64,000 nt of DNA, taken from contig JAHJQF010000001.1 in the NCBI GenBank assembly GCA_018819405.1, positions 34,097 through 98,096 of the forward strand. Direction: 5' to 3'. Source of the stretch: Patescibacteria group bacterium. Its GTDB lineage: Bacteria; Patescibacteriota; Patescibacteriia; UBA1558; GWA2-36-10. Position 1 is the stretch's first letter. Every line of letters begins with the position of its first letter. The notes under the pieces are model-generated. The model saw only the letters and a program-made list of their open reading frames with translations. It was not told where the DNA came from and did no database searches. Of this stretch, positions 8,659 to 47,077 are shown in pieces. A program made the translations under genes and the position numbers.

Positions 8659-8764
8659 AATTTTTAATTAATTATTTTATTTGACTATATTATAGCAAAA
8701 AAACAGCTTAAAAGCGAGTAGTCAGTTATTATAAATAACATAAAAATATGCTATAATTTTAGTA

Positions 8765-11668: not shown

Positions 11669-11743
11669 TGGCTCCGGGAGGGGGATTCGAACCCACGACC
11701 AATTGATTAACAGTCAACTGCTCTACCACTGAGCTATCCCGGA
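11669..11743 (-). tRNA. tRNA-Asn(GTT): tRNA-Asn (anticodon GTT), CCA encoded
   Basis: Manual cloverleaf fold: acceptor TCCGGGA/TCCCGGA, D-arm GCTC-AGTGGTA-GAGC, anticodon stem GTTGA/TCAAT with loop cTGTTaa, T-loop TTCGAAT, 3' GCCA. Confidence 0.8.
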
Positions 11744-11982
11744 ATGAATTTTTTAATAAATTGTCTACCCCGATAACTTTTTAGTTGTTTTTCTCTGGTC
11801 AGGGCTTCTTTTCTTGTTTTAATTTTTTCAGAATATATGATTTCCCAATTTCCATCAAATTTAGATGTATACCCAGAAAATATTTTTTTATTGTGTATAG
11901 TCAAACGTTCTGATAGATTTTTTGTTTGACCAATATAAAATTTATTTACTGTTTTGTTATAAATAGCATAGACAGTATACAT
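11734..11982 (-). CDS. GIY-YIG domain nuclease (UPF0213-like, 82 aa); 3' end overlaps the tRNA-Asn 5' end by 10 nt
   Basis: YAIYNKTVNKFYIGQTKNLSERLTIHN...REKQLK is a GIY-YIG motif. Confidence 0.7.
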   Translation of the reverse strand: MYTVYAIYNKTVNKFYIGQTKNLSERLTIHNKKIFSGYTSKFDGNWEIIYSEKIKTRKEALTREKQLKSYRGRQFIKKFIPG

Positions 11983-12003
11983 ATCGCTTTTCTAAATTTT
12001 ATA

Positions 12004-12045
12004 AACTGCTCTGCCTCCGCCAGCTGGCGGAGAGCTATCCCGGAA
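12004..12045 (-). repeat. Degenerate duplicate of the tRNA-Asn 5' portion (aactgctct...gagctatcccggaa) containing a hairpin
   Basis: 14-nt exact match gagctatcccggaa (12032-12045 vs 11731-11744) plus an upstream aactgctct match. The intervening ctccgccagctggcggag is an inverted repeat. Confidence 0.6.
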
Positions 12046-12048
12046 AAA

Positions 12049-12300
12049 TTATAAACTATTTTTTATCAAATTTTCTTTGGCTGTTTTGCTCCAAGTCTTT
12101 ATTTCCGCTTCTCTTTTCATAGCCTTGCCAACCGAAGCAAACTCCTCCCAGTAAATTATTTTAACAGGCCTTCTTTGTTTTGTATATTTAGCACCTTGAC
12201 CACTATTATGTTTGAGCTCTCTATCTTTTAAATTTGTAGTATAGCCTGTATAGATTGTGTCATCACTGCAACGGGCAAGATAACAATAATATTTTTTCAT
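12049..12300 (-). CDS. GIY-YIG domain nuclease (second copy, 83 aa)
   Basis: YYCYLARCSDDTIYTGYTTNLKDRELKHN...REAEIKTW is a GIY-YIG motif. Confidence 0.7.
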   Translation of the reverse strand: MKKYYCYLARCSDDTIYTGYTTNLKDRELKHNSGQGAKYTKQRRPVKIIYWEEFASVGKAMKREAEIKTWSKTAKENLIKNSL

Positions 12301-12319
12301 TTGTTTTGCTCAGTTGAAT

Positions 12320-12396
12320 TGGTAGCAGGGGGGAGAATCGAACTCCCGACCTCAGGCTTATGAGTCCTACGCTCTAACCAACTGAGCTACCCTGCC
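12320..12396 (-). tRNA. tRNA-Met/Ile2(CAT): tRNA with CAT anticodon (elongator Met or Ile2/lysidine), CCA encoded
   Basis: GGCAGGGTAGCTCAGTTGGTTAGAGCG...loop CTCATAA...GGGAGTTCGATTCTCCC...CCCTGCTACCA. Cloverleaf with one A-G mismatch in the anticodon stem. Confidence 0.7.
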
Positions 12397-12416
12397 TAAG
12401 AATAGATATAAAATTT

Positions 12417-12492
12417 TGGTAGCGGGGGCCGGACTCGAACCGGCGACCTTCAGGTTATGGGCCTGACGAGCTGCCAACTGCTCTACCCCGCG
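12417..12492 (-). tRNA. tRNA-fMet(CAT): Initiator tRNA-fMet (CAT), CCA encoded
   Basis: CGCGGGGTAGAGCAG...GTCAGGCCCATAACCTGAAGGTCGCCGGTTCGAGTCCGGCCCCCGCTACCA is nearly identical in architecture to E. coli tRNA-fMet (recalled), including an unpaired C1. Confidence 0.8.
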
Positions 12493-12515
12493 TCGTGAAA
12501 TAAATATAATTTTGG

Positions 12516-12592
12516 TGGTCGGAGTGGTGGGACTTGAACCCACGACCTTACGCACCCCATGCGCACGCGCTAGCCAACTGCGCCACACCCCG
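12516..12592 (-). tRNA. tRNA-Pro(GGG): tRNA-Pro (anticodon GGG), CCA encoded
   Basis: Acceptor CGGGGTG/CACTCCG, D-arm GCGC-AGTTGGCTA-GCGC, anticodon stem TGCGC/GCGTA with loop aTGGGGt, T-arm GTGGG-TTCAAGT-CCCAC. Confidence 0.75.
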
Positions 12593-12640
12593 CAAAATTA
12601 TATACTAAAGTATAGAGGGTTATGGCACAATTTACAAGTT

Positions 12641-12717
12641 TGGTGGACCCAAGGAGACTTGAACTCCTGACCTCTTCCATGCCATGGAAGCGTTCTAGCC
12701 AACTGAACTATGGGCCC
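12641..12717 (-). tRNA. tRNA-Ala(GGC): tRNA-Ala (anticodon GGC) with G3-U70 identity pair, CCA encoded
   Basis: GGGCCCATAGTTCAGTTGGCTAGAACG-CTTCC-aTGGCat-GGAAG...TGGGTCCACCA; a G3:U70 pair is present. Confidence 0.8.
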
Positions 12718-12810
12718 TATAAATAATTGCTTAATTGTCTAATTGATTAATAGTTTAATTGTTCTTATCAATTATCCTATTATACTATCAATCTATATAG
12801 CCTATTAATT

Positions 12811-12897
12811 TGGTACCGAGGAGAGGAATCGAACCTCCACGGGGTTGCCCCCACTGGATTTTGAGTCCAGCGCGTCTACCAATTCCGCCACCTCGGC
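12811..12897 (-). tRNA. tRNA-Leu(CAA): tRNA-Leu (anticodon CAA), long variable arm, CCA encoded
   Basis: GCCGAGGTGGCGGAATTGGTAGACGCG-CTGGA-cTCAAaa-TCCAG-TGGGGGCAACCCCGT-GGAGGTTCGATTCCTCT-CCTCGGTACCA. Confidence 0.8.
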
Positions 12898-33080: not shown

Positions 33081-34127
33081 TTACAACTTGGATGTCTCAT
33101 GGATTCTCTCCACGAGTGTTGGAATGTATTTCTTCTTACACTCGCCACAAAGCGAGGTGCCGGAAACACATTCCTGATACATCCGCGTTGTTGCGTCGTA
33201 AGGTTGTAAAACCTCGGCGATCTTAAAGAAAGAACAATTATGTGGGTTACCACCTTTCCGACGCTGTTCTTCTGGAGTCGAACGACCACCGGAAAAACTT
33301 CGTCGCAGTTTACGCTCAATCTGCTCGCGAGTCTCGTCTAGAAGAATGAGTGATTTTGAGTTCTTCACGCTCATTCTCTGTCCAGGATCTTCCAAGCTTG
33401 GAAGAAGCAGGCGATACGAGTAACTCGGCAACGGAAGCTTAAGTTGACGAGCAATTATCTTCGTAGCTTCCGCGTGTGTGATCTGGTGGATGTCCGATAG
33501 GACAAGAGTCGGACGATTCGGAAAAAGTGTTGTCGGCAAAAGAAACGCTGCGGCTGTGATGGCAGGAACACGAAGCGTAGTAACAGAAACACCCTCGTCC
33601 CAACCATATAGTTGCAAAACCTTTCTTGCCGACAGACACGCTCCTGAACGATTGTCGAGAACTTGGAGTTCCCGACAATCTTGGTCAGAGAAACTCACTG
33701 AAGCATCTGGTAACGAATCACCTATAAACTTCAGATATGTCTCTCCAAACCTCGCCATCTCAATCTTTGCGTCATTGGCACTTAGAAGCCGATCCGCCTC
33801 GTACCCAGCAAACACGAAAATTGGTTGACCACCCTGTTGGACGAGCCAATACAATTCTCGCATTAGTGTGAGATGACCGAGGTGGAATGTCGCACCAGGA
33901 CGCATACCAACTAACACCGAGAACTGCTTTCCAATTACCATTGCTTTGAAGACAGGCAGTGGGTTTTGAAAAGCCCAAACACTGACACGAGCGAAGCCTT
34001 CCCAAATATCGGTAAAATTGTCGGTCAACGCCCCCGCTATTGTCTCGAGAGAGAATTGTTTAACTACGTTGGTTGCTTCAGCAGCAGCCAATATTGCTCT
34101 TTCTCCCAGCCAGTTTTCAAGCGCCAT
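33081..34127 (-). CDS. Divergent TrpRS-like class I aminoacyl-tRNA synthetase paralog with a C-terminal C-x21-C-x6-C-x2-C (putative Fe-S) cluster
   Basis: HIGH-like GMRPGATFHLGH, KMSKS-like SVKNSKSL, and C-terminal NCSFF...QECVSGTSLCGECKKK. Has an N-terminal extension of about 70 aa. GC-rich. Confidence 0.65.
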   Translation of the reverse strand: MALENWLGERAILAAAEATNVVKQFSLETIAGALTDNFTDIWEGFARVSVWAFQNPLPVFKAMVIGKQFSVLVGMRPGATFHLGHLTLMRELYWLVQQGGQPIFVFAGYEADRLLSANDAKIEMARFGETYLKFIGDSLPDASVSFSDQDCRELQVLDNRSGACLSARKVLQLYGWDEGVSVTTLRVPAITAAAFLLPTTLFPNRPTLVLSDIHQITHAEATKIIARQLKLPLPSYSYRLLLPSLEDPGQRMSVKNSKSLILLDETREQIERKLRRSFSGGRSTPEEQRRKGGNPHNCSFFKIAEVLQPYDATTRMYQECVSGTSLCGECKKKYIPTLVERIHETSKL

Positions 34128-34966
34128 TAGTGTCTCCTTTACTTGATTACGCGTGGAGAAAATGAATCATCTCCTCCAAGCGACTTTCCAGGTTGTTGTC
34201 TCTGACATACTGCTCGGCTTTCTGCATGTAGAATGCGGGAAAGTCCGGCATACCCCCATGAAGACTACTTCCCAGCGCCCAAAAACGAGCAACCGCCGCG
34301 AGAGTACTTTCATGCAACTGCTCTTCGGAAAGTGCATGATGGTATCGAAACATATCCCCGCTTTGTGTTACGATCCCCGCTTTCAGAAAAGACAAGGTTG
34401 TCGCCTCAGCCATCCTTACCCACAACTGCTGAAAGGATGGAGAGATGTAGTAACGCAGAAAATAACTGCGATACCACGGACATAGATGGAAGCGCGCGAG
34501 TACGGAGTCTGCCACCAAGTCTACACTTGTGGCAAAAATTCTTTCTCGCTTTACAGCCATCGCTGCCGCAAACGGCCCGATGAACGCCCCACCGACTTCC
34601 ATAACCACATCCCTATCTTTTTGCGAAGCCATGAACATAACATGAGGGTTATATACTTTGCCGGCGAAGTATCCTCCGAAAGTTTTCTGTCTACCATCAC
34701 TCACAAAATCATTTCTATTAAGTAAGTAGATGGTGACCGGATAACCCTCGAAGGACGATTGAATCCTTTGAATAGTGGTTGGTTGCGTGTGGATAAAGAG
34801 AAGATCAAGGTCACTCTCGGGATTTTGTTGGTTCAGCACGAAGCTGCCGTAGCACACCCAAAAGCTCCCGTCACCTTCTTGTGCTCCGATTTCGCTCGCA
34901 AGACATGCAACCGCTCGCGCAACAAAGTCGAAGTTTTCTTGCTTCATGAATGTTCTGTACACGTGC

Positions 34967-37101
<2,135 letters not shown>

Positions 37102-37320
37102 TTAGAGCTATTTTGCTTGACTTGAATTGTCAAGGTTCTGAAACACGAACCAGAATTTAATGTCACTGGTATGACATTTTATTTTACGATAAAACATACA
37201 TTTTGTCAAGCATATATATTCATATATTATTACAATATCCGACTAAGGTCAAACAAAAAAACACTATCAAAATAAATAGTATTTTTATAGGTAATCGGGT
37301 CATCCGATACTAAATTGTCG

Positions 37321-37411
37321 TGGCGGAGAGGACAGGATTCGAACCTGCGAGGGATTTTACTCCCTACTCGCTTTCCAAGCGAGCGCACTAGACCAACTAT
37401 GCGACCTCTCC
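37321..37411 (-). tRNA. tRNA-Ser(GGA): tRNA-Ser (anticodon GGA), long variable arm, CCA encoded
   Basis: GGAGAGGTCGCATAGTTGGTCTAGTGCG-CTCGC-tTGGAaa-GCGAG-TAGGGAGTAAAATCCCTCGC-AGGTTCGAATCCTGT-CCTCTCCGCCA. Confidence 0.8.
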
Positions 37412-37661
37412 ATGTTTTAATACGCTTTTCAAGTTTAGCCCGTAAATAAGCGCAGCGAATTTTACGGGCCGTGTGCACTACCCGCCTGCCACGGCTTCGC
37501 CGAAGGCGATGGCGGGCAGGGACCACCCACCGCCACAAATATCTAATTTAAATGAAGGCGGGGTCCCGCTACGCGGGATATGCGAACCTTCCTAGTGACC
37601 AACTATGTTTAGCCCGTAGCCAGACAAGCTATGCTTGGATGTGCTATGGGCCGACCTCTCC
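37412..37661. other. GC-rich hairpin-rich about 250-bp element abutting the tRNA-Ser 5' end, bounded by an 11-bp direct repeat of the tRNA 5' end
   Basis: cgacctctcca at 37403-37413 and 37651-37661. Hairpins GCCCGTAAA-14-TTTACGGGC, CCTGCC...GGCAGG, TCCCGC-tac-GCGGGA; gtttagcccgta is repeated. Confidence 0.4.
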
Positions 37662-37741
37662 AAAATATGCCTAAACAGTATAGATTTTATCATAATTTTA
37701 GTCAATACAAAAACCCCCGCCAAAAAGCGAGGGTCTGTAAA

Positions 37742-40150
37742 TTATTTTTTAGACTTTTTACGACTTCTAGTTTTTTCAGTTTTCTTGATAGCAATAATGG
37801 TTTTGATTACCGTGTCTGGATTGAGTGAAATAGAATCAATACCCTCGCCTACCAAAAATTGAGCAAAGTCCGGAAAATCAGAGGGAGCCTGACCGCAGAT
37901 ACCGATTTTTCTTTTGTTCTTTTTGGCAATAGCTATCACTTGTCTTATCAACTGTTTGACTGATTCATTTCTTTCATCATAGACATGAGCGACCAATTCG
38001 CTGTCACGATCTACGCCTAGAGTAAGCTGAGTAAGGTCGTTTGACCCGATTGAAAATCCGTCAAAAATTTGGCAGAACTCTTCGGCTAGTATTACATTGG
38101 ACGGAATTTCACACATCACATACACCTCCAAGCCGTCTACACCACGCTTGAGACCATGCTCAGCCATAATACGCAATACTTTTTTGCCCTCTTCTACTGT
38201 CCGACAAAATGGTACCATGATTTTCAAATTCTTTAGACCCATTTCTTTGCGTACTTTGACCAATGCTTTGCACTCCAGCTCAAAAGCAGCTAGATATTTT
38301 GGACTATAATATCTACTAGCCCCACGCCAGCCAATCATTGGATTTCTTTCTTCCGGCTCAAACTCAGTACCACCAATCAAACTAGCATATTCATTTGATT
38401 TAAAATCAGACAATCTAATAATTACATCTTTAGGATAAAAAGCGGCCGCAATTCTGGAAATTCCTTCGGCTAATTTGTCTATGAAAAATTGTGGTTTATT
38501 TTTGTAAGCTGCGGTCTGCTCTTCAATAACTCTCTTGGTCTTAGGGTCTTTGATTTTGGCAAAGTTGAGCAAAGCCAAAGGATGAATACGAATGTAATTG
38601 GAAATAATAAATTCTTCACGAGCCAAACCAACACCTTCATTGGGAATAAAACTTTGTGCCATGGCCATTTCTGGATTACCAATATTCATCATTATCTTGG
38701 TTTTGGATTTTTTGAAATTTTTCAAATTTGTTTTTTTGATTTCGTATTTTAGTAAACCGTTGTAAATGAATCCTTTTTCACCTTCAGCACAGGAGACCGT
38801 GACATTTTGTCCATTTTTCAATTTTTCTGTCCCGTCTTTGGTGCCGACTACGCAAGGAATACCCAACTCACGAGAAATAATAGCCGCGTGACATGTCCTG
38901 CCACCCGAATTGGTAATGATAGCGCTGGCTATTTTCATAATTGGCTCCCAATCTGGATCAGTCATCTCGGTGACTAGCACCTCACCTGGCTTGAACTTGT
39001 CAATATTTTTGGCGTCTTTGATAATATGGACCTTGCCCTGACCAATTTTGTTGCCCACCGATGCACCAATAGACAAAACCTTGCTGCGTTCTTTGATAAT
39101 ATATTCAATCAAAGTATTGGGGTCATCCTGACTGCGGACTGTCTCCGGTCTGGCTTGTACAATATAGAGTTTGCCAGTCTTACCATCTTTGGCCCATTCC
39201 ATATCCATTGGTTTTTTGTAGTGCTCTTCAATTTGGACTGCCCATTTAGCCAGTTGCAATACCTCGCTGTCTTTGAGCACAAAAGTATTTTGCTCCTTTT
39301 TTGAGACAGGCATATTTTTGGTGTTGCTTTTGGCCTGGCTATCATAAATCAATTTTTTATCCTTGTGACCCAAAGTCTTGGAAATAATAGGTTTGAATCC
39401 CTTAAGTAGTGTTGGCTTGAATACATAGTATTCATCAGGGTTGACCATGCCTTGGACAATATATTCCCCTAATCCGTATATAGAATTGATAAGCACAGCA
39501 TCTCTAAAACCAGATTCAGTATCAATAGAAAACATAACGCCAGATGAAGCCATATCAGAACGTACCATTTTTTGGATAGTGATCGAAAGCTTTACCTTAA
39601 AATGACTAAAGCCTTTGTCAGTACGATATGATACTGCCCTATCAGTAAACAAGCTGGCCATACATCTTTTGCAAGCATCCAAAATCTCTTCAGCTCCTTC
39701 TACATTGAGATAAGTGTCCTGTTGACCGGCAAAAGAAGCGTCCGGCAAATCCTCAGCTGTGGCTGAAGAACGTACCGCCACATCAACATTGGTAGTTTTG
39801 AATTCTTTGGAAAGCTTGTGGTAATTATTTACAATATCCTCTTTCAAATCCTCAGGAAATTCCGCCTTGAGTATTGCCTGCCTGACTTTATGGGCATGCT
39901 CCTGTAAATTTTTGATATTGTGAGTATTGAGAGTCTTGAGAATTTGTCTAATCTCTTTTTTTACACCGGTTGTAGTAATAAAATAATCATAGGCTTCAGC
40001 GGTCACTGCAAAACCATTTGGTATTGGCACGCCTTTTCTGGTCAGTTTGGAATACATTTCACCTAGTGATGCATTTTTGCCGCCCACGCTTGGCACGTCT
40101 TTGATACCAATTTCTTTAAACCACAAAATGTATTTATTTTTCTTTGCCAT
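37742..40150 (-). CDS. ppsA: Phosphoenolpyruvate synthase (pyruvate, water dikinase)
   Basis: N-terminal VPSVGGKNASLGEM, PEP-utilising mobile domain GGRTCHAAIISRELGIPCVVG, C-terminal PEP/pyruvate domain; 802 aa. Confidence 0.9.
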   Translation of the reverse strand: MAKKNKYILWFKEIGIKDVPSVGGKNASLGEMYSKLTRKGVPIPNGFAVTAEAYDYFITTTGVKKEIRQILKTLNTHNIKNLQEHAHKVRQAILKAEFPEDLKEDIVNNYHKLSKEFKTTNVDVAVRSSATAEDLPDASFAGQQDTYLNVEGAEEILDACKRCMASLFTDRAVSYRTDKGFSHFKVKLSITIQKMVRSDMASSGVMFSIDTESGFRDAVLINSIYGLGEYIVQGMVNPDEYYVFKPTLLKGFKPIISKTLGHKDKKLIYDSQAKSNTKNMPVSKKEQNTFVLKDSEVLQLAKWAVQIEEHYKKPMDMEWAKDGKTGKLYIVQARPETVRSQDDPNTLIEYIIKERSKVLSIGASVGNKIGQGKVHIIKDAKNIDKFKPGEVLVTEMTDPDWEPIMKIASAIITNSGGRTCHAAIISRELGIPCVVGTKDGTEKLKNGQNVTVSCAEGEKGFIYNGLLKYEIKKTNLKNFKKSKTKIMMNIGNPEMAMAQSFIPNEGVGLAREEFIISNYIRIHPLALLNFAKIKDPKTKRVIEEQTAAYKNKPQFFIDKLAEGISRIAAAFYPKDVIIRLSDFKSNEYASLIGGTEFEPEERNPMIGWRGASRYYSPKYLAAFELECKALVKVRKEMGLKNLKIMVPFCRTVEEGKKVLRIMAEHGLKRGVDGLEVYVMCEIPSNVILAEEFCQIFDGFSIGSNDLTQLTLGVDRDSELVAHVYDERNESVKQLIRQVIAIAKKNKRKIGICGQAPSDFPDFAQFLVGEGIDSISLNPDTVIKTIIAIKKTEKTRSRKKSKK

Positions 40151-40548: not shown

Positions 40549-41085
40549 TTAATTTTTAATAGATTTATTTTTTGTGACTTTGATAAACAAAGCTCCTAAT
40601 AGAGCAATCAAAATTATCATCCAAAGTGGCTCGACCAAAAGATTGAGCCAGGCCCAAGCTGATTTGATATATACTATCTTGATAACTCCCAAAATGATAA
40701 TGGCGGCTAAAAAAGAAAAGATGGTGGTTATAAACATCTTATCAGTTGACAAAAGCCATCTAAGGCGGGCTAAAGACAACCAAACAAGTAAGATCACCAA
40801 ACGCCAAGCCCAGGTCATCCAAAATATGAATTGTTCAGACCAATACATCTTGAGACCAATATCGCGCAAAGCAATCTCAGTCACAACAATAAAAACCAAA
40901 AGTACAATAGAGACCAGTATCCAAGAAAATCCAGCCTCTGACTTTGGCTTGAGTTTGATGACTTCCCGACGCAACTCCTCTTCTAGCTCATGTGTGCCAA
41001 AATCAGCCAACCACACCTCAGTGGTTTCATCGGTCTCTACCCCAGTATCTGGATCAATACTATGTTGTGACCTCTTAAATATCAT
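40549..41085 (-). CDS. Membrane protein, hypothetical
   Basis: Several TM helices. Confidence 0.35.
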   Translation of the reverse strand: MIFKRSQHSIDPDTGVETDETTEVWLADFGTHELEEELRREVIKLKPKSEAGFSWILVSIVLLVFIVVTEIALRDIGLKMYWSEQFIFWMTWAWRLVILLVWLSLARLRWLLSTDKMFITTIFSFLAAIIILGVIKIVYIKSAWAWLNLLVEPLWMIILIALLGALFIKVTKNKSIKN

Positions 41086-41129
41086 ATGTCTATATTATAA
41101 CAAAAAATGAGCTAAATTAAAAACCCACC

Positions 41130-41172
41130 CATAAAAAACAACCTCCGAGGTTAATTTAACCTCGGAGGTTGT
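41130..41172 (-). terminator. Strong rho-independent terminator downstream of the metzincin gene
   Basis: 13-bp perfect inverted repeat CAACCTCCGAGGTT-aattta-AACCTCGGAGGTTG with a U-run on the minus strand. Confidence 0.7.
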
Positions 41173-41187
41173 TTGGGCTAAAAAATA

Positions 41188-42969
41188 TTATTCAGTATCA
41201 ATTTGATTTAAATCATTATTGGTAATACCCAGACTCAAGAACCTCATAATCTGATAAGCTGCCTCACCATCTCTCATATAATACCTTTTACCGTCATCAG
41301 GATTTATATACCAAGCTTCACCACGAGACTGCACTTGTAACACTATCTGGCCTTTCAGCCTATTTACCAAACCGCTATCATTGGACATGTTGCCCAAACC
41401 AAGCGGGTTATAATTACCATTCACCTCAACTCCGTCTTTATATCCATCATTATCAGAGTCATCATTATTTGGATCTGTACCCAGCCCTTCTTCCAATTTA
41501 TTACACAGGCCATCATTATCATTATCTACACACTCAAATCTGTCTTCTATACCCACTGGGATTTTAGCTAAATCTACATTGCTGATTCCCAAACCAAGAT
41601 TTCTCATCATACCGTAGGCAGCGCTTCCGTCTTTCATATACATTCGTTTGCCATTGTCCGGTCTTACATACCAAGCTTCGCCATGATTTTCTACCTGCAG
41701 TAAAATTTTTCCTTTTAATCTGTTGCTCAATTCCAAATCTATTTCCGGTAAAGGAACTAATTCTTCAACTGGTGTATCGAGCTCTTCTATTGGCGTAAGA
41801 GGTGGACTAGGGTTGAATTCTTGAAGTAATGTTATTTTTATTATTGCTCTGGATAAAGCGGGATTATCCTCATTTATATCCAAATTCAAAACTTGTACTC
41901 TGGTCTGATCCTCTGGATCATAAAAACCAGTGCTCCCAGTATGAAGATCTGGCGTGTCTTCTTTGAGTACAGCTGAATTCCAGCTAAAATCTTCTCCTAC
42001 TGGACTAGCATCTATCAAAATAGAGTCTGTATATTGTCCTGGATTATTGGTGTGAATGAGTATGCCATTTAAATCAGGCGCGGCGCCTAAATTAGCATCA
42101 AACCCAATAGGCTGACGAAATTCTAAATACCAAAATTTACCATTGTTTCTTTTGATTTTGATGGCCTTAAGCCCAGGATCGCTAGATTCAAAAGGTGTTA
42201 ATTCATAAGTGCCATTAGAGACTATGCTATTAGAATCAACTTCTAATAATTGATGTTGGCTATCAAAAAAACCAATAGTATCTTTTTGTACGGCACTAAA
42301 TTGCCCTGGCCTTGATAGAGGGACACTCATTATGTTGCTCAAATCTTGGACTGTATAAATTTCACATCCGCTAGCACTATAAGGTATGTCATTACATTTA
42401 TACATACCCGCATGTTGAGAGCCAAAGCCGTGCCCTAATTCATGGCCAATACCATAAGGCCAAGGAATAGTATTGTCTGCTACCCAGCCTAAGGTCATAG
42501 TATGATTGCCGTCTGGAGTGGCAAAGGTTCTGGTACCAATATAGCTAGCGCCACGCCCACAATCGCCGTTTGGCATCACAATCATCAAATGATCATAAGC
42601 TAAAAAATCAACAGCACTATTTCCTTCTTCAGTTTCAAGAGCCTGAGTTGCGGCCAAAGAAATAGCTGTCAGATCACAATTATAATTCATCGCCAATTCA
42701 TACCATTTATTTTGATAGTTGGCTGAAGGAAAAACATCACCTGACAAATGAATTTGCCCGTAGGAATTCTCATTATAAAAATTAGCTATGCTATTATTAG
42801 CATTAAAAGTAATATTAACCACATCATCTCGATTGTTTTTCAAACCATCAGTATCTTGAAAGTTTACCAATATGAGTAATATTTTGTGTTCTGTAGTAGT
42901 AGCATTAACCGAAAAATTACCAACAAGAAACAACAAAAACAAAAACAGGAAAAGAATAATTTTTTTCAT
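41188..42969 (-). CDS. Secreted metzincin-type zinc metalloprotease with two C-terminal novel repeat modules and an Asp-rich (DxDxDG-like) segment
   Basis: Signal peptide; GIGHELGHGFGSQH = HExxHxxGxxH; C-terminal 2x NRLKG.I.LQV...GEAWY..PD.G.RYYM.DG.AAY.IMR.L.LGI.N.DL flanking CVDNDNDGLCNKLEEGLGTDPNNDDSDNDGYKDG. Confidence 0.8.
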   Translation of the reverse strand: MKKIILFLFLFLLFLVGNFSVNATTTEHKILLILVNFQDTDGLKNNRDDVVNITFNANNSIANFYNENSYGQIHLSGDVFPSANYQNKWYELAMNYNCDLTAISLAATQALETEEGNSAVDFLAYDHLMIVMPNGDCGRGASYIGTRTFATPDGNHTMTLGWVADNTIPWPYGIGHELGHGFGSQHAGMYKCNDIPYSASGCEIYTVQDLSNIMSVPLSRPGQFSAVQKDTIGFFDSQHQLLEVDSNSIVSNGTYELTPFESSDPGLKAIKIKRNNGKFWYLEFRQPIGFDANLGAAPDLNGILIHTNNPGQYTDSILIDASPVGEDFSWNSAVLKEDTPDLHTGSTGFYDPEDQTRVQVLNLDINEDNPALSRAIIKITLLQEFNPSPPLTPIEELDTPVEELVPLPEIDLELSNRLKGKILLQVENHGEAWYVRPDNGKRMYMKDGSAAYGMMRNLGLGISNVDLAKIPVGIEDRFECVDNDNDGLCNKLEEGLGTDPNNDDSDNDGYKDGVEVNGNYNPLGLGNMSNDSGLVNRLKGQIVLQVQSRGEAWYINPDDGKRYYMRDGEAAYQIMRFLSLGITNNDLNQIDTE

Positions 42970-43061
42970 AATTTTATTTCTAATATATCTATACTATAAC
43001 AAAAAATCAGATAAAATAAAAACCCTCTCTGAATATTTTTCAAAAAGGGAATTATTTTTGT

Positions 43062-44963
43062 TTATTCGGTAGATATTTGTTCTAAATCCTTATTAGTAAT
43101 ACCTAAAGACAAATATCTCATAATTTGATAAGCTGCCTCACCATCGGTCATATAATAACGCCTGCCATCATCTGGATTTATATACCAAGCCTCCCCTCGA
43201 GACTGCACTTGTAACACAATTTTACCTTTTACATTATTAACTAAACTATTATCATAAACTGATTTACCTACACCCAAAGGATTGTAAGCGCTCTTTACTT
43301 CTGCACCATCATCAAAACCATCATCATCAGAATCATTATCATTGGGATCTGTACCAATGCTTTCCTCTAATTTATTACACAGGCCATCATTGTCATCATC
43401 TGTACACTCAAACCTATCTTCTATACCTACTGGAATTTTAGCTAAATCTGCGTTACTTATTCCTAGTCCAAGATCTCTCATCATACCATAGGCCGTATCG
43501 CCATCTTTCATATAAATTCTATTACCGTTATCTGGACGAACATACCAAGCTTCGCCATAATTTTCTACCTGCAGTAAAATTTTTCCTTTTAATCTATTAG
43601 TAAGCTGCAAATTTTTCTGACGCTTGTTTTGATTCTCAATATCGGAATCATCATCTGATTCGATACAAGCCCCTAGTGTATCACCGTGAGTCTGGTGGGC
43701 AGGCCAAGCTGACTCAGCAATTTCTAAAGTATTACTACTGCCATTCCCCGTCAGATGACAGATGATTATTTTTTTGACATCTATGTCGCTATCATCGGAA
43801 TCATCTTCGCTGTCATCAGAAACCACTGCTATTGTTTTCGTAAGTTCATTATTGCTTTCACTTATTTCATCTTTCCTATTCATTGGGTCAACCTTGAAAT
43901 ATAATGACTTTTCGCCAGTAGATGTAAAATGCCCTGTAAAAATATATTCAAAATCATGAATTATTGTAAATGGCTCACCCGCATCTAGCATCATATCATC
44001 AACTACAAAATCTTCAAAATTATGATCATATTGATTCAATGAATCCGTAGTCACTGTCCCGCCCGTCTCATCCACCGCACCTGTGACAGTTATGGTTGTA
44101 TTAGCGCCTGCCTGTGGACTGGACGGAGAAACACTAATATTTTCTATAATCATATCTACACAATTTTCATGATAATGTCCCTCTGGACGTGGAATAATAG
44201 GTTGGCACTCATTTATAGGAGATACATAATCATCATAGCTGGTCACTTCAAAAGTAACATTCTTGGTGTTGTTTTCCTCATTTGATTCCTCTATATCGTC
44301 ATCAGCATCAATTATAGCCGTCGCCTCATAAGTGCCTGCGTCTAATTTTATAGCATTGCTACATGTAGCATAACCAGGGACTACTGTAGCATAACTAGTC
44401 CGACAAACTATATCACCTATGTGTATTTCGATAGTATTATTATAATTTAGAAGATTATTACCCTCATTATCTACATAAACAGTAAAAGCTAGCACTGTGT
44501 CTGCAAATCTATTACTATAATCTGGTGTGCTAAAGCCACCACTATTACCAATTTTAAAATCAGTAATTACCAAATCAGGTTTGTCACGATAAATAGTAAA
44601 TGGCGCATCGCTTTGATCTTGAGGATTTCCATTTTCTCCAGCAGGATAACCGATTATTTTTACTAAAAAATTATCCTCGCCCTGCATAGTTTGATTATCT
44701 AAAATAGTATATTGATAAGCACCCTGAGTATCACTAGGATTGACACTAACTGAAACACCCTGCTGCATTACAGTACCTTCAATATTAGTTATGTATATAA
44801 ATACGCTATTAATATCTGACTGATCCCATCTAAATTCATAAGTCTCCCCACTTTTGAGACTTTCTCCACCATTGGGATATACTAGTTCCAGAGAGGCCGC
44901 TTTAGCAGTATCAGCTAGTCCTAAAAGCAACAATGACCCAAAAAGAAATAATAATTTTTTCAT
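43062..44963 (-). CDS. Secreted multidomain (Ig/CARDB-like) protein, tandem paralog sharing the same C-terminal repeat + Asp-rich module; no HExxH
   Basis: The C-terminal about 170 aa is nearly identical to the upstream gene product (about 80% nt identity over about 550 bp). Signal peptide; Asp/Ser acidic linker (SDDSEDDSDDSDID). Confidence 0.75.
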   Translation of the reverse strand: MKKLLFLFGSLLLLGLADTAKAASLELVYPNGGESLKSGETYEFRWDQSDINSVFIYITNIEGTVMQQGVSVSVNPSDTQGAYQYTILDNQTMQGEDNFLVKIIGYPAGENGNPQDQSDAPFTIYRDKPDLVITDFKIGNSGGFSTPDYSNRFADTVLAFTVYVDNEGNNLLNYNNTIEIHIGDIVCRTSYATVVPGYATCSNAIKLDAGTYEATAIIDADDDIEESNEENNTKNVTFEVTSYDDYVSPINECQPIIPRPEGHYHENCVDMIIENISVSPSSPQAGANTTITVTGAVDETGGTVTTDSLNQYDHNFEDFVVDDMMLDAGEPFTIIHDFEYIFTGHFTSTGEKSLYFKVDPMNRKDEISESNNELTKTIAVVSDDSEDDSDDSDIDVKKIIICHLTGNGSSNTLEIAESAWPAHQTHGDTLGACIESDDDSDIENQNKRQKNLQLTNRLKGKILLQVENYGEAWYVRPDNGNRIYMKDGDTAYGMMRDLGLGISNADLAKIPVGIEDRFECTDDDNDGLCNKLEESIGTDPNDNDSDDDGFDDGAEVKSAYNPLGVGKSVYDNSLVNNVKGKIVLQVQSRGEAWYINPDDGRRYYMTDGEAAYQIMRYLSLGITNKDLEQISTE

Positions 44964-45021
44964 AATTTTAATTTAAATAATAACTAAATAATAACTATAA
45001 GTATAGTAACATTTTTTCTAT

Positions 45022-45050
45022 AAAAAAGCACCTCAGACGACTGAGGTGCT
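45022..45050 (-). terminator. Rho-independent terminator downstream of groEL
   Basis: GCACCTCAG-acga-CTGAGGTGC hairpin with a U-run on the minus strand. Confidence 0.7.
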
Positions 45051-45058
45051 AAAATGTG

Positions 45059-46705
<1,647 letters not shown>

Positions 46706-46801: not shown

Positions 46802-47077
46802 TTATTCTATGACCGCTAAGAGGTCATCATGATTCAAAATTTTGTACTCTTGTCCGTCAATTTTTATTTCTGAACCGCCATATTCAGAGAAAACAACTTT
46901 TTGCCCAACTTTTACATTTAGTTTGACAATTTTTTCGCCATTACCAACAGCAATAATTTCTCCTTCCATACGGGATTCTCGGTTGGCAGTATCAGGCAAA
47001 ATAATACCTGACTTCGTAGTTTCTTCTTTAGGTAGGGCTTTGACAATTACCCTGTCTCCAAGTGGTTTTAGATTCAT
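46802..47077 (-). CDS. groS: Co-chaperonin GroES
   Basis: 91 aa; immediately upstream of groEL; typical mobile-loop region. Confidence 0.95.
   Translation of the reverse strand: MNLKPLGDRVIVKALPKEETTKSGIILPDTANRESRMEGEIIAVGNGEKIVKLNVKVGQKVVFSEYGGSEIKIDGQEYKILNHDDLLAVIE

What the first reader, a model, noticed from the sequence alone, without database searches (positions are those of the whole stretch)
41188..44963. Tandem paralogous secreted proteins (a metzincin protease and an Ig/CARDB-like protein) sharing a novel duplicated C-terminal repeat plus Asp-rich module
Both proteins end with the same about 170-aa architecture. This is repeat A (NRLKGKILLQVEN.GEAWYVRPDNG.R.YMKDG.AAYGMMR.LGLGISN.DLAKIP), then an Asp-rich calcium-binding-like segment (VDNDNDGLCNKLEE..GTDPN..DSD.DG), then repeat A' (VN.LKG.IVLQVQSRGEAWYINPDDG.RYYM.DGEAAYQIMR.LSLGITN.DL.QI). 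Nucleotide identity over about 550 bp is about 80%, consistent with recent duplication or gene conversion. One N-terminal partner is an HExxHxxGxxH metzincin; the other has CARDB-like beta domains. I do not recognise the repeat. It may be a cell-surface or host-envelope binding module, relevant if the organism is an episymbiont.
Basis: seen in the sequence. Interest (0 to 1): 0.55.

Follow-up and report, generated by a model that had tools for sequence, protein, structure and literature searches.

The report
CPR wall-anchor repeat on secreted proteins
Two neighbouring secreted proteins of an uncultured ultra-small (Patescibacteria/CPR) bacterium end in the same unannotated double-repeat module, which also sits at the tail of phage cell-wall-cutting enzymes, so it is most likely a new kind of tag that sticks proteins to the bacterial cell wall.

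Summary
ORFs 41188-42969(-) and 43062-44963(-) share a C-terminal 183-aa module (79% aa identity, 77-78% nt identity). The module is repeat, then an Asp-rich linker, then repeat. The N-terminal halves are unrelated: an HExxHxxGxxH zinc protease and a CARDB/Ig-like protein.

The copy is not recent: dS is about 1.4 and dN/dS about 0.10. The linker is a bacterial thrombospondin-type-3 (TSP3) calcium-binding repeat.

The ~58-aa repeat matches nothing in Pfam, NCBIfam, PDB sequences or Foldseek (PDB, BFVD). It still defines a very large family of 3,667 clusters at 50% identity. All informatively named sources are Patescibacteria. All 83 genome-locus ORFs and 137 of 139 representatives carry exactly two repeats, placed right after a signal peptide or at the C-terminus of very diverse exoproteins. 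The pair models at pLDDT 95; one repeat alone models at 66.

On phage contigs a single homologous repeat (hhalign 99.3%) forms the C-terminus of M23 and C39-like peptidases, the usual position of an endolysin wall-binding domain.

Best reading (about 0.55): a new CPR-specific cell-wall-binding anchor. It is a new domain family doing a known kind of job. Binding itself is untested.

The parts
41188..42969 (-). Gene A: 593-aa secreted zinc metalloprotease carrying the C-terminal module
   Evidence: ORF. An orthologue with the same architecture lies in L032 (58% identity over the N-terminal 410 aa), directly downstream of that genome's groEL.
42901..42969 (-). Signal peptide of A (aa 1-23, MKKIILFLFLFLLFLVGNFSVNA)
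   Evidence: Read from the sequence. No signal-peptide predictor was run.
42070..42900 (-). Metalloprotease domain of A (aa ~24-300). Zinc motif HELGHGFGSQH at 42412-42444; candidate Met-turn NIMS at 42325-42336.
   Evidence: TIGR03296 M6 domain E=1.3e-8, spanning profile 2-277/286 but below cutoff. Reprolysin_4/5 hits are weak. Myroilysin 5zjk matches at E=1.6e-5 across the zinc site. Motif coordinates.
41740..42069 (-). Unassigned middle region and Pro-rich linker of A (aa 301-410)
   Evidence: No family hit. Conserved in the L032 and P0252 orthologues.
41554..41733 (-). Repeat 1 of A (aa 413-472)
41374..41553 (-). TSP3-type calcium-binding linker of A (aa 473-532), with DNDNDG and DSDNDG and a Cys480/Cys489 pair
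   Evidence: PF18884 E=5.5e-5 (23.4 bits, just under the cutoff of 25). Foldseek to Bap B-domain 7c7r gives rmsd 0.9 A, 42% identity, prob 0.99. Motifs.
41191..41373 (-). Repeat 2 of A (aa 533-593), ending at the stop codon
41133..41170 (-). Terminator-like hairpin plus T-run after gene A
   Evidence: Sequence aacctccgaggttaaattaacctcggaggttgtttttt read.
42988..43004 (-). Promoter-like element TTTTGTTATAGTATAGA upstream of gene A
   Evidence: 3 matches in the window against 0.11 expected by chance. A second exact copy at 41089-41105 lies upstream of the next gene.
43023..43049 (-). Terminator-like hairpin after gene B, so A and B are separate transcription units
43062..44963 (-). Gene B: 633-aa secreted Ig/CARDB protein carrying the same C-terminal module
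   Evidence: ORF. A 623-aa orthologue in L001 occupies the same groEL-downstream slot.
44895..44963 (-). Signal peptide of B (aa 1-23)
   Evidence: Read from the sequence.
44652..44876 (-). Kre9/KNH-like N-terminal Ig-like domain of B (aa 30-104)
   Evidence: PF10342 E=0.012 here, which is weak. The same family is hit in 5 of 82 relatives, best 3.6e-13.
43809..44522 (-). Two CARDB-type beta-sandwich domains of B (aa ~148-235 and ~262-385)
   Evidence: PF07705 E=5e-8, 33.5 bits, above the cutoff, 2 stretches. The limits of the second domain are approximate.
43665..43760 (-). Cys/His mini-motif CHLTGNGSSNTLEIAESAWPAHQTHGDTLGAC (aa 402-433), between an acidic linker and the module
   Evidence: A regex finds it in 9 of 342 relatives, always shortly before the module. 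No Pfam hit.
43428..43607 (-). Repeat 1 of B (aa 453-512)
43248..43427 (-). TSP3-type calcium-binding linker of B (aa 513-572), with DDDNDG and DSDDDG and a Cys520/Cys529 pair
   Evidence: PF18884 E=2.7e-5 (24.3 bits). Motifs.
43065..43247 (-). Repeat 2 of B (aa 573-633)

Best explanation
The ~58-aa repeat is an unannotated extracellular alpha/beta domain of Patescibacteria (CPR) bacteria and of some phages. Its predicted topology is short helix, three-stranded beta-meander, helix, beta-strand, short helix. It most likely binds the cell wall, meaning peptidoglycan or a wall-linked glycopolymer.

In cellular proteins two copies fold together into one pseudo-symmetric unit. They are usually joined by a ~60-aa TSP3 calcium-binding insert that probably rigidifies the pair. 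This 183-aa unit is a portable, non-covalent anchor placed right after the signal peptide or at the extreme C-terminus. It would keep otherwise soluble exoproteins on the surface of the producing cell. These exoproteins include proteases, glycosidases, protease inhibitors, DsbA and Ig/CARDB/fn3 arrays.

In the window, two independently transcribed genes downstream of groES-groEL use the same anchor for different cargo: a metzincin-type zinc protease (A) and a CARDB/Ig-like protein (B).

Shown here: the architecture, the family size and taxonomic range, the pairing rule, purifying selection, the absence of any known-family match, and the fusion to phage wall hydrolases. Inferred: wall binding, calcium dependence, and the own-cell ligand.
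For: 1. Extracellular and modular. Both window proteins have signal peptides, and 110 of 139 family representatives look signal-peptide-bearing. The module is C-terminal in 101 of 139 and directly after the signal peptide in 34 of 139.

2. One conserved module on very diverse cargo. Partners include Trypsin_2, S8, C25, a metzincin, GH10, GH85_C, GHL15, NAGPA, arylsulfotransferase, DsbA/thioredoxin, Kazal, macroglobulin MG4, CAP+SH3_3, CARDB, fn3, LamG and Big. This is the pattern seen for anchoring modules such as SLH.

3. Strong constraint. dN/dS is about 0.10 between the window copies, with dS 1.42. The module keeps 50-79% identity across Falkow-, Komeili-, Buchanan- and Uhrbacteria while the cargo changes. 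At the syntenic groEL-downstream slot, the module is kept and the N-terminal part is swapped.

4. Paired unit. All 83 module ORFs in 80 genome loci, and 137 of 139 representatives, have exactly two repeats. AF2 models the pair at pLDDT 95 / pTM 0.88, against 66 / 0.47 for one repeat, which also loses strand 4. Nineteen inter-repeat linkers among the 139 representatives are under 20 aa, so the TSP3 insert is optional.

5. Phage lysin fusions. L086 and seven relatives (53-88% identity) are Peptidase_M23 (57.9 bits against a cutoff of 28.7, plus endolysin PHROGs) with one C-terminal repeat. L087 is a C39-like Cys peptidase with one C-terminal repeat. Their neighbours are tail proteins, an ERF recombinase and small ORFs. 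hhalign of the lysin C-terminus against the window repeat profile gives 99.3% probability, E=4e-20. This is the canonical position of an endolysin cell-wall-binding domain. A more distant M23 relative carries SLH, a known wall anchor, after its M23 domain (P0269).

6. The linker is a TSP3 calcium-binding repeat.
Against: - No binding experiment exists, and no structural match to any known wall-binding fold was obtained. Foldseek top hits to EccB repeats and to the LysIME-EF1 wall-binding domain are non-significant (prob <= 0.08). hhalign to PlyCB gives 0.4%.
- None of about 165 cellular partner proteins scanned carries a classical peptidoglycan hydrolase domain. LysM, SH3b and CWB modules usually show such fusions.
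- The phage evidence rests on two lineages only. The C39-like hit is below Pfam's cutoff (20.8 against 22), and the hosts of these phages are unknown.
- C-terminal domains of lysins can also serve oligomerisation.
- Single-repeat proteins exist (L081-L087), so 'obligate pair' must mean pairing in cis or in trans. The AF2 contrast between one and two repeats could partly be a short-sequence artefact.
Confidence: 0.55

Rival explanations
1. Host-adhesion module. The paired repeat binds the envelope of the host or partner organism on which the episymbiotic CPR cell lives, delivering proteases and Ig-like adhesins to the host surface.
For: CPR bacteria are widely thought to be episymbionts (my background knowledge). 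The cargo includes many Ig, fn3, CARDB and LamG arrays and giant 1,300-1,560-aa proteins typical of adhesins. Nothing here measures the ligand.
Against: The module is highly conserved (50-79% identity) across several CPR candidate phyla that are unlikely to share one host surface. Cargo such as DsbA/thioredoxin, Kazal inhibitors and macroglobulin makes more sense on the producer's own surface. Phage lysins carrying the repeat need to bind the wall of the cell they lyse.
Confidence: 0.18
2. Protein-protein docking or oligomerisation module. The pair, or single repeats in trans, docks onto a protein receptor such as an S-layer lattice, a pilus or a cohesin-like partner, or simply multimerises its cargo.
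For: A single repeat is predicted to be unstable alone, and the pair packs as a pseudo-dimer, so single-repeat phage proteins probably self-associate. The module contains two Ca2+ loops, which loosely resembles dockerins. Wall-binding domains of several endolysins are known oligomerisation units (PlyCB octamer and LysIME-EF1 tetramer; PMC7098653).
Against: No conserved partner gene was seen next to module genes. Module-bearing genes are scattered, with several per genome. The conserved Q, E, W, Y and R positions are also typical of glycan-binding sites.
Confidence: 0.12
3. Substrate-targeting carbohydrate-binding module. It directs enzymes to an environmental polysaccharide or to detrital cell walls rather than anchoring them to the producer.
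For: Some partners are glycoside hydrolases (GH10, GHL15, GH85_C) and a phosphodiester glycosidase.
Against: Most partners are not carbohydrate-active. They are proteases, inhibitors, DsbA and Ig arrays. Module-only proteins exist (P0001).
Confidence: 0.08
4. The shared 3' ends result from a recent local duplication or gene conversion, or from an assembly artefact, and carry no special functional meaning.
For: Two adjacent genes share about 540 nt at 78% identity.
Against: dS=1.42. Both fusions have orthologues in other genomes. There are 3,667 clusters with the module. Module A is as similar to L012's module as to B's.
Confidence: 0.02

Closest known systems
SLH (S-layer homology) domains, PF00395
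   Same: A non-covalent envelope anchor used as a fixed multi-copy unit at the N- or C-terminus of S-layer proteins and of many different exoenzymes in monoderm-type bacteria. The logic of one conserved anchor on many cargos is the same. An M23 relative of the phage lysin carries SLH after its M23 domain (P0269).
   Different: There is no sequence similarity: no Pfam hit at E<=1 for the proteins or E<=10 for 89 single repeats. From my own knowledge, SLH is an all-helical three-fold unit, whereas this module is a two-fold alpha/beta unit with a Ca2+-binding insert.
PlyCB / EccB repeat-type small alpha/beta wall-associated domains (PDB 4f87, 4kk7)
   Same: Units of 50-60 aa with a four-stranded sheet and two helices that pack in pairs or rings. 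They are wall-associated in a phage lysin (PlyCB) and proposed to be so for EccB1 (PMC4769845). EccB entries were the top-ranked Foldseek hits for the module.
Bacterial thrombospondin type-3 repeat (TSP3_bac, PF18884) and the Bap B-domain Ca2+ sites (7c7r)
   Same: The Asp-rich linker has two DxDxDG loops, hits PF18884, and superposes on Bap at 0.9 A with 42% identity. A phage protein matches at 0.4 A.
   Different: Here the TSP3 segment is an insert between two copies of another domain and is dispensable in about 14% of relatives. The window's own scores (23.4 and 24.3 bits) fall just under Pfam's cutoff of 25.
Classical wall-binding modules of Gram-positive surface proteins and endolysins (LysM, SH3b, CW_binding_1/2, PG_binding_1, SPOR, PepSY)
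   Same: Small, repeated and terminal, fused to secreted enzymes and, in phages, to peptidoglycan hydrolases.
   Different: None is detected by Pfam or NCBIfam. No cellular fusion to amidase, lysozyme or NlpC/P60 domains was seen among about 165 partners.
Metzincin zinc endopeptidases (M12 myroilysin / astacin-adamalysin type; M6 InhA domain TIGR03296), relevant to the N-terminal half of gene A
   Same: An HExxHxxGxxH motif, similarity to myroilysin across the active site, and M6-domain-length coverage.
   Different: All family scores are below curated cutoffs (35.1 against 110.8 for TIGR03296; Reprolysin hits 13-18 bits against 22-27). The Met-turn is only a candidate (NIMS, aa 212-215).

Membership tests
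Known wall- or surface-binding domains (SLH, LysM, PepSY, SH3b, CW_binding, SPOR, PG_binding) | Significant match to the family's profile HMM | tested here: not met
   Pfam at E<=1 on both proteins, NCBIfam at E<=1, and Pfam at E<=10 on 89 diverse single repeats with no recurring family.
Any solved structure | Sequence or fold match of the repeat to a PDB chain | tested here: not met
PlyCB-like / EccB-repeat fold | Significant structural superposition of the ~55-aa four-strand, two-helix unit | tested here: inconclusive
   EccB entries rank 1, 4, 6 and 9 in Foldseek, but with prob <= 0.04 and rmsd about 20 A. The topology described in PMC4769845 resembles the DSSP string. hhalign against PlyCB gives 0.4%.
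TSP3_bac (PF18884), for the linker | DxDxDGxxDxxE-type calcium-binding loops recognised by the HMM | tested here: met
   Two DxDxDG loops per linker. E=5.5e-5 and 2.7e-5, although 23.4 and 24.3 bits are just below the cutoff of 25. 53 of 82 and 48 of 75 relatives hit, best 1.8e-13. Foldseek prob 0.99-1.00 and rmsd 0.4-0.9 A to the equivalent segments of Bap and phage proteins.
TSP3_bac (PF18884), for the linker | Actual Ca2+ binding | not testable with these tools
   Needs ITC or crystallography.
Metzincins (clan MA(M)), for gene A | Extended zinc motif HExxHxxGxxH/D | tested here: met
   HELGHGFGSQH at aa 176-186, aligned to the myroilysin active site HEFGHALGMIHEH, E=1.6e-5.
Metzincins (clan MA(M)), for gene A | Conserved Met-turn beneath the zinc site | tested here: inconclusive
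   A candidate NIMS lies 26 residues after the third His. No structure model of the protease domain was made.
M6 (immune inhibitor A) family, TIGR03296 | Score at or above the curated cutoff | tested here: not met
   35.1 bits against a cutoff of 110.8, although nearly the whole profile (2-277/286) is covered.
CARDB (PF07705), for gene B | Pfam match above the gathering score | tested here: met
   33.5 bits against 22.7, 2 stretches. The orthologue in L001 is also hit.
Endolysin-type architecture (catalytic domain plus C-terminal wall-binding domain), for the phage relatives | A peptidoglycan hydrolase domain followed by the repeat, in a phage context | tested here: met
   L086 and P0260-P0266 are Peptidase_M23 (57.9 bits against 28.7) with endolysin PHROG hits and the repeat at aa ~172-220. 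hhalign gives 99.3%. Tail genes, an ERF recombinase and small ORFs lie nearby. In L087 the catalytic domain is only a sub-threshold C39 hit.

The most novel reading that the evidence does not exclude
The paired repeat is the general surface-display anchor of a large part of the Patescibacteria (Falkow-, Komeili-, Buchanan-, Uhrbacteria and relatives). It would be a new wall-binding fold recognising a CPR wall component, shared between the cells' own exoproteins and the lysins of their phages. If so, it defines the 'surfaceome' of these uncultured bacteria from sequence alone. It would also give a ready-made affinity probe (module-GFP) to label, sort and identify CPR cells and to pair phages with hosts.
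Probability: 0.35. Interest if true: 0.7.

Novelty: new variant of a known kind. Interest (0 to 1): 0.55.

Why it matters
Patescibacteria/CPR make up a large share of bacterial diversity, are almost entirely uncultured, and much of their proteome has no known function. How they hold enzymes and adhesins on their surface is not known.

This module marks thousands of their secreted proteins (3,667 clusters at 50% identity) and has no entry in Pfam or NCBIfam. If it is a wall anchor, three things follow:
- It sorts the CPR secretome into retained and released proteins.
- It points to a conserved wall ligand.
- It offers a fluorescent or affinity probe for CPR cells and a way to link uncultured phages to CPR hosts.

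If it is only another domain of unknown function with a structural role, the result is still a clean definition of a large family that is suitable for curation.

Tried and rejected
- Foldseek with the single-repeat model (pLDDT 66) returned only noise.
- The window protease is not in the exact-match contig index.
- The search of the large protein database with the two-sequence phage-type repeat alignment found no word-sharing candidates.
- A second viral scan with that alignment only re-found L086 and L087.
- A hand-made degenerate DNA pattern for LQxExxGELW[YF] gave those two contigs plus three chance hits with no repeat.
- tblastn of the module and of the phage-type repeat against 50,697 GenBank phage records found no match.
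- Literature searches for CPR surface domains, TSP3 in Patescibacteria, and CPR phage wall-binding domains found no description of this repeat.
- The fibritin foldon hit (E=0.5) and the 'flagellin hook IN motif' hit (4-5 bits per domain) in PDB are short beta-hairpin coincidences.
- The NigD_N OB-domain hit (E=0.0028, 22 residues) did not recur among 89 repeats (1 member).
- A secretion or sorting signal was rejected because the module also sits N-terminally with other domains following it (34 of 139).
- The 'uncultured Gammaproteobacteria' labels on many loci were rejected as taxonomic evidence. L004 and L007 have GroEL about 80% identical to the window's, the same level as the Patescibacteria locus L011, and they share the synteny.

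Full report
**1. What is there**

The window encodes, on the minus strand, groES (46802-47077), groEL (45059-46690), gene B (43062-44963, 633 aa), gene A (41188-42969, 593 aa), a 178-aa membrane protein (40549-41085) and a PEP-utilising enzyme (37742-40150). A and B both begin with Sec-type signal peptides.

A terminator-like hairpin follows groEL, B and A. A 17-nt promoter-like element TTTTGTTATARTATAGA precedes A and the membrane-protein gene, with 3 matches in the window against 0.11 expected. A and B are therefore separate transcription units.

**2.

- The last 183 aa of A and B align without gaps at 79% identity (E=8e-91). The internal repeat is detected too.
- Nucleotide identity is 77-78% over about 540 nt.
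- The N-terminal halves are unrelated. A carries HELGHGFGSQH (aa 176-186), matches the M12 metzincin myroilysin across the zinc site (E=1.6e-5), and covers almost the whole M6-domain model, though far below its cutoff.
- B has a weak Kre9/KNH-like Ig domain and two CARDB stretches above Pfam's cutoff.
- The Asp-rich linker hits the bacterial TSP3 repeat (PF18884, E about 3-5e-5, just under the cutoff). In the model it superposes on the Ca2+-binding part of the Bap B-domain at 0.9 A and 42% identity.

**3. The copy is old, not recent**

Third codon positions are 58% identical. Nei-Gojobori gives dS=1.42, dN=0.14 and dN/dS about 0.10. The repeats are more constrained (dN 0.08-0.12) than the linker (dN 0.21). 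A's module is as close to a module in another genome (L012, 78%) as to B's. These are two long-separated users of one conserved module.

**4. The family**

- The word-indexed search found 403 relatives of the 183-aa module. The names given are 'hypothetical protein' in Falkow-, Buchanan- and Komeilibacteria, Parcubacteria and Patescibacteria. The only Pfam annotation on the module itself is TSP3.
- An exhaustive HMMER search with a single-repeat profile found 3,667 cluster representatives at 50% identity (2,519 at E<=1e-30). Nearly all of the top 150 have two matched stretches.
All informatively named sources are Patescibacteria, and several genomes hold several copies.
- Many loci are labelled 'uncultured Gammaproteobacteria'. 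L004 and L007 have GroEL about 80% identical to the window's, the same level as the Patescibacteria locus L011, and they share the synteny. That label is therefore unreliable.
- All 83 module-bearing ORFs in the 80 loci have exactly two repeats.
- Among 139 representatives the module is C-terminal in 101, directly after the signal peptide in 34, internal in 3 and the whole protein in 1. Of 142 inter-repeat linkers in these proteins, 117 are 50-69 aa (TSP3) and 19 are under 20 aa.
- The two repeat positions carry their own signatures. Repeat 2 has AYQIMRFLSLGIT and repeat 1 has FGLGIT...KIPVG.

**5. Is it a known domain?**

All of the following tests were negative:
- Pfam at E<=1 and NCBIfam at E<=1 on the proteins.
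- Pfam at E<=10 on 89 diverse single repeats, with no recurring family.
- PHROGs.
- phmmer and profile search against all PDB sequences.
- Foldseek against PDB and BFVD with a pLDDT-95 / pTM-0.88 model of the module. Nothing reached E<=0.001 and only the TSP3 linker aligned.

**6. The pair as a unit**

One repeat modelled alone, with 89 sequences in its alignment, reaches only pLDDT 66 / pTM 0.47 and loses its fourth strand. The two-repeat module reaches 95 / 0.88. Together with the strict two-copy rule, this suggests the repeats complete each other's fold as a pseudo-dimer, with the TSP3 segment as an optional Ca2+-stiffened connector. This is an inference from predictions, not a demonstration.

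**7. What it is attached to**

Pfam censuses of 82 representatives, 75 genome-locus proteins and 6 giant proteins gave these partners:
- CARDB, fn3, Pur_ac_phosph_N-type Ig, Kre9_KNH, TIG, Big, LamG.
- Trypsin-like, S8 and C25 proteases.
- Kazal inhibitors and macroglobulin MG4.
- DsbA/thioredoxin.
- GH10, GHL15 and GH85_C.
- NAGPA phosphodiester glycosidase and arylsulfotransferase.
- CAP+SH3_3 and PsbP-like.

No amidase, lysozyme or NlpC/P60 domain was seen. Module-only proteins exist (P0001).

**8. Synteny**

The slot between groEL and the membrane-protein gene holds module genes in at least six related genomes (GroEL 79-86% identical to the window's):
- L012 has one 868-aa CARDB protein.
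- L001 has a 905-aa CARDB protein plus a 623-aa orthologue of B.
- L032 has a 642-aa orthologue of A (58% identity over the protease half).
- L011, L004 and L007 have other ~630-aa proteins.

. Both fusions are therefore real and inherited, and cargo is exchanged while the anchor stays. Tandem module genes occur in 4 of 79 loci.

**9. Phage evidence**

A scan of IMG/VR found seven viral contigs with a single copy of the repeat.
- In L086 it is the C-terminus of a 227-aa Peptidase_M23 protein (57.9 bits against a cutoff of 28.7, with endolysin and metallo-endopeptidase PHROG hits).
- In L087 it is the C-terminus of a 222-aa C39-like Cys peptidase (E=3.6e-4, sub-threshold).
- Both genes follow tail genes.
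- Seven relatives of the L086 protein (53-88% identity, ~220 aa, on 20-40-kb contigs) keep M23 plus the repeat. One lies among many small ORFs and an ERF recombinase, and is followed by three small ORFs.
- hhalign of these C-termini against the window's repeat profile gives 99.3% probability, E=4e-20.
- A more distant M23 relative has SLH after its M23 domain (P0269).
- Other viral contigs carry signal peptide, one repeat, then a trypsin-like protease (L081) or an unassigned domain (L082-L085).

The catalytic-domain-then-C-terminal-binding-domain layout is the standard architecture of endolysins against walled hosts. This is the strongest functional clue obtained.

**10. Interpretation**

Best-supported (about 0.55): a CPR-specific cell-wall-binding domain, used in cis pairs as a non-covalent anchor for exoproteins.

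Rivals:
- Host-envelope adhesin (0.18).
- Protein docking or oligomerisation (0.12).
- Substrate-targeting carbohydrate-binding module (0.08).
- Recent-duplication artefact (0.02, refuted).

Weak points are the absence of any binding data, no significant fold match, only two phage lineages, unknown phage hosts, and no cellular fusions to peptidoglycan hydrolases.

**11. Novelty and score**

The job (a modular surface anchor) is a known kind. The domain family, its pairing rule with a TSP3 insert, its CPR restriction and its sharing with phage lysins are, as far as the libraries and literature available here show, undescribed. I rate it a new variant of a known kind, with interest 0.55.

Noticed in passing
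window 43665-43760 (B aa 402-433); also L001:1835-4549 aa 675-706, and P0125, P0127, P0134, P0170, P0187, L004, L007, L011: A 32-aa Cys/His mini-motif CHxxGNGxxxTLxxAxxAxxAHxxHGDxxGxC sits just upstream of the module in 10 proteins. It has no Pfam hit. It could be a small metal- or disulfide-stabilised knot or linker domain.
   Followed up: partly
window 42988-43004, 41089-41105, and a variant at 8684-8700 (all minus strand): A shared promoter-like element TTTTGTTATARTATAGA lies about 20-30 nt upstream of start codons. There are 3 matches against 0.11 expected. It may be a lineage-specific extended -10 promoter.
   Followed up: partly
window 41086-45058, compared with L001, L012, L032, L011, L004, L007: The interval between groEL and a conserved 175-aa membrane-protein gene is a variable slot. 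In each related genome it holds a different set of module-bearing genes (one or two genes, with different cargo).
   Followed up: partly
L004, L007 and about 25 other loci: MAGs titled 'uncultured Gammaproteobacteria bacterium' (TPA_asm SRP..._co... bins) carry GroEL about 80% identical to the window's, as the Patescibacteria locus L011 does, and share the synteny. The organism label is evidently a placeholder or an error.
   Followed up: partly
L086:5485-6165 and P0260-P0266: In the phage M23 lysins the HxH-containing half of the M23 profile (positions 47-90) comes first (aa 5-48), and an HPG[IV]D[IL]N motif typical of the profile's first half follows at about aa 105. This suggests a circularly permuted or split M23 domain.
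   Followed up: no
P0269 (223 aa): This M23 peptidase is distantly related to the phage lysin and carries an SLH domain after its M23 domain. It looks like a natural swap of wall-binding modules.
   Followed up: no
L001:1835-4549 and L012:1946-4552, N-terminal ~130 aa and two internal segments: Repeated DxDGxxNLSD / DxNxDGxxNLxD segments look like dockerin-type or EF-hand-like Ca2+ loops. They occur in CARDB proteins that also carry the module. Pfam did not report them at E<=0.001.
   Followed up: no
window 11672-12897 and 37324-37411 (minus strand): There is a cluster of six tRNA genes within 1.2 kb, plus one isolated long-arm tRNA.
   Followed up: no
window 34001-38000: GC content rises to 0.46-0.49, against a window mean of 0.37. 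The cause was not examined.
   Followed up: no
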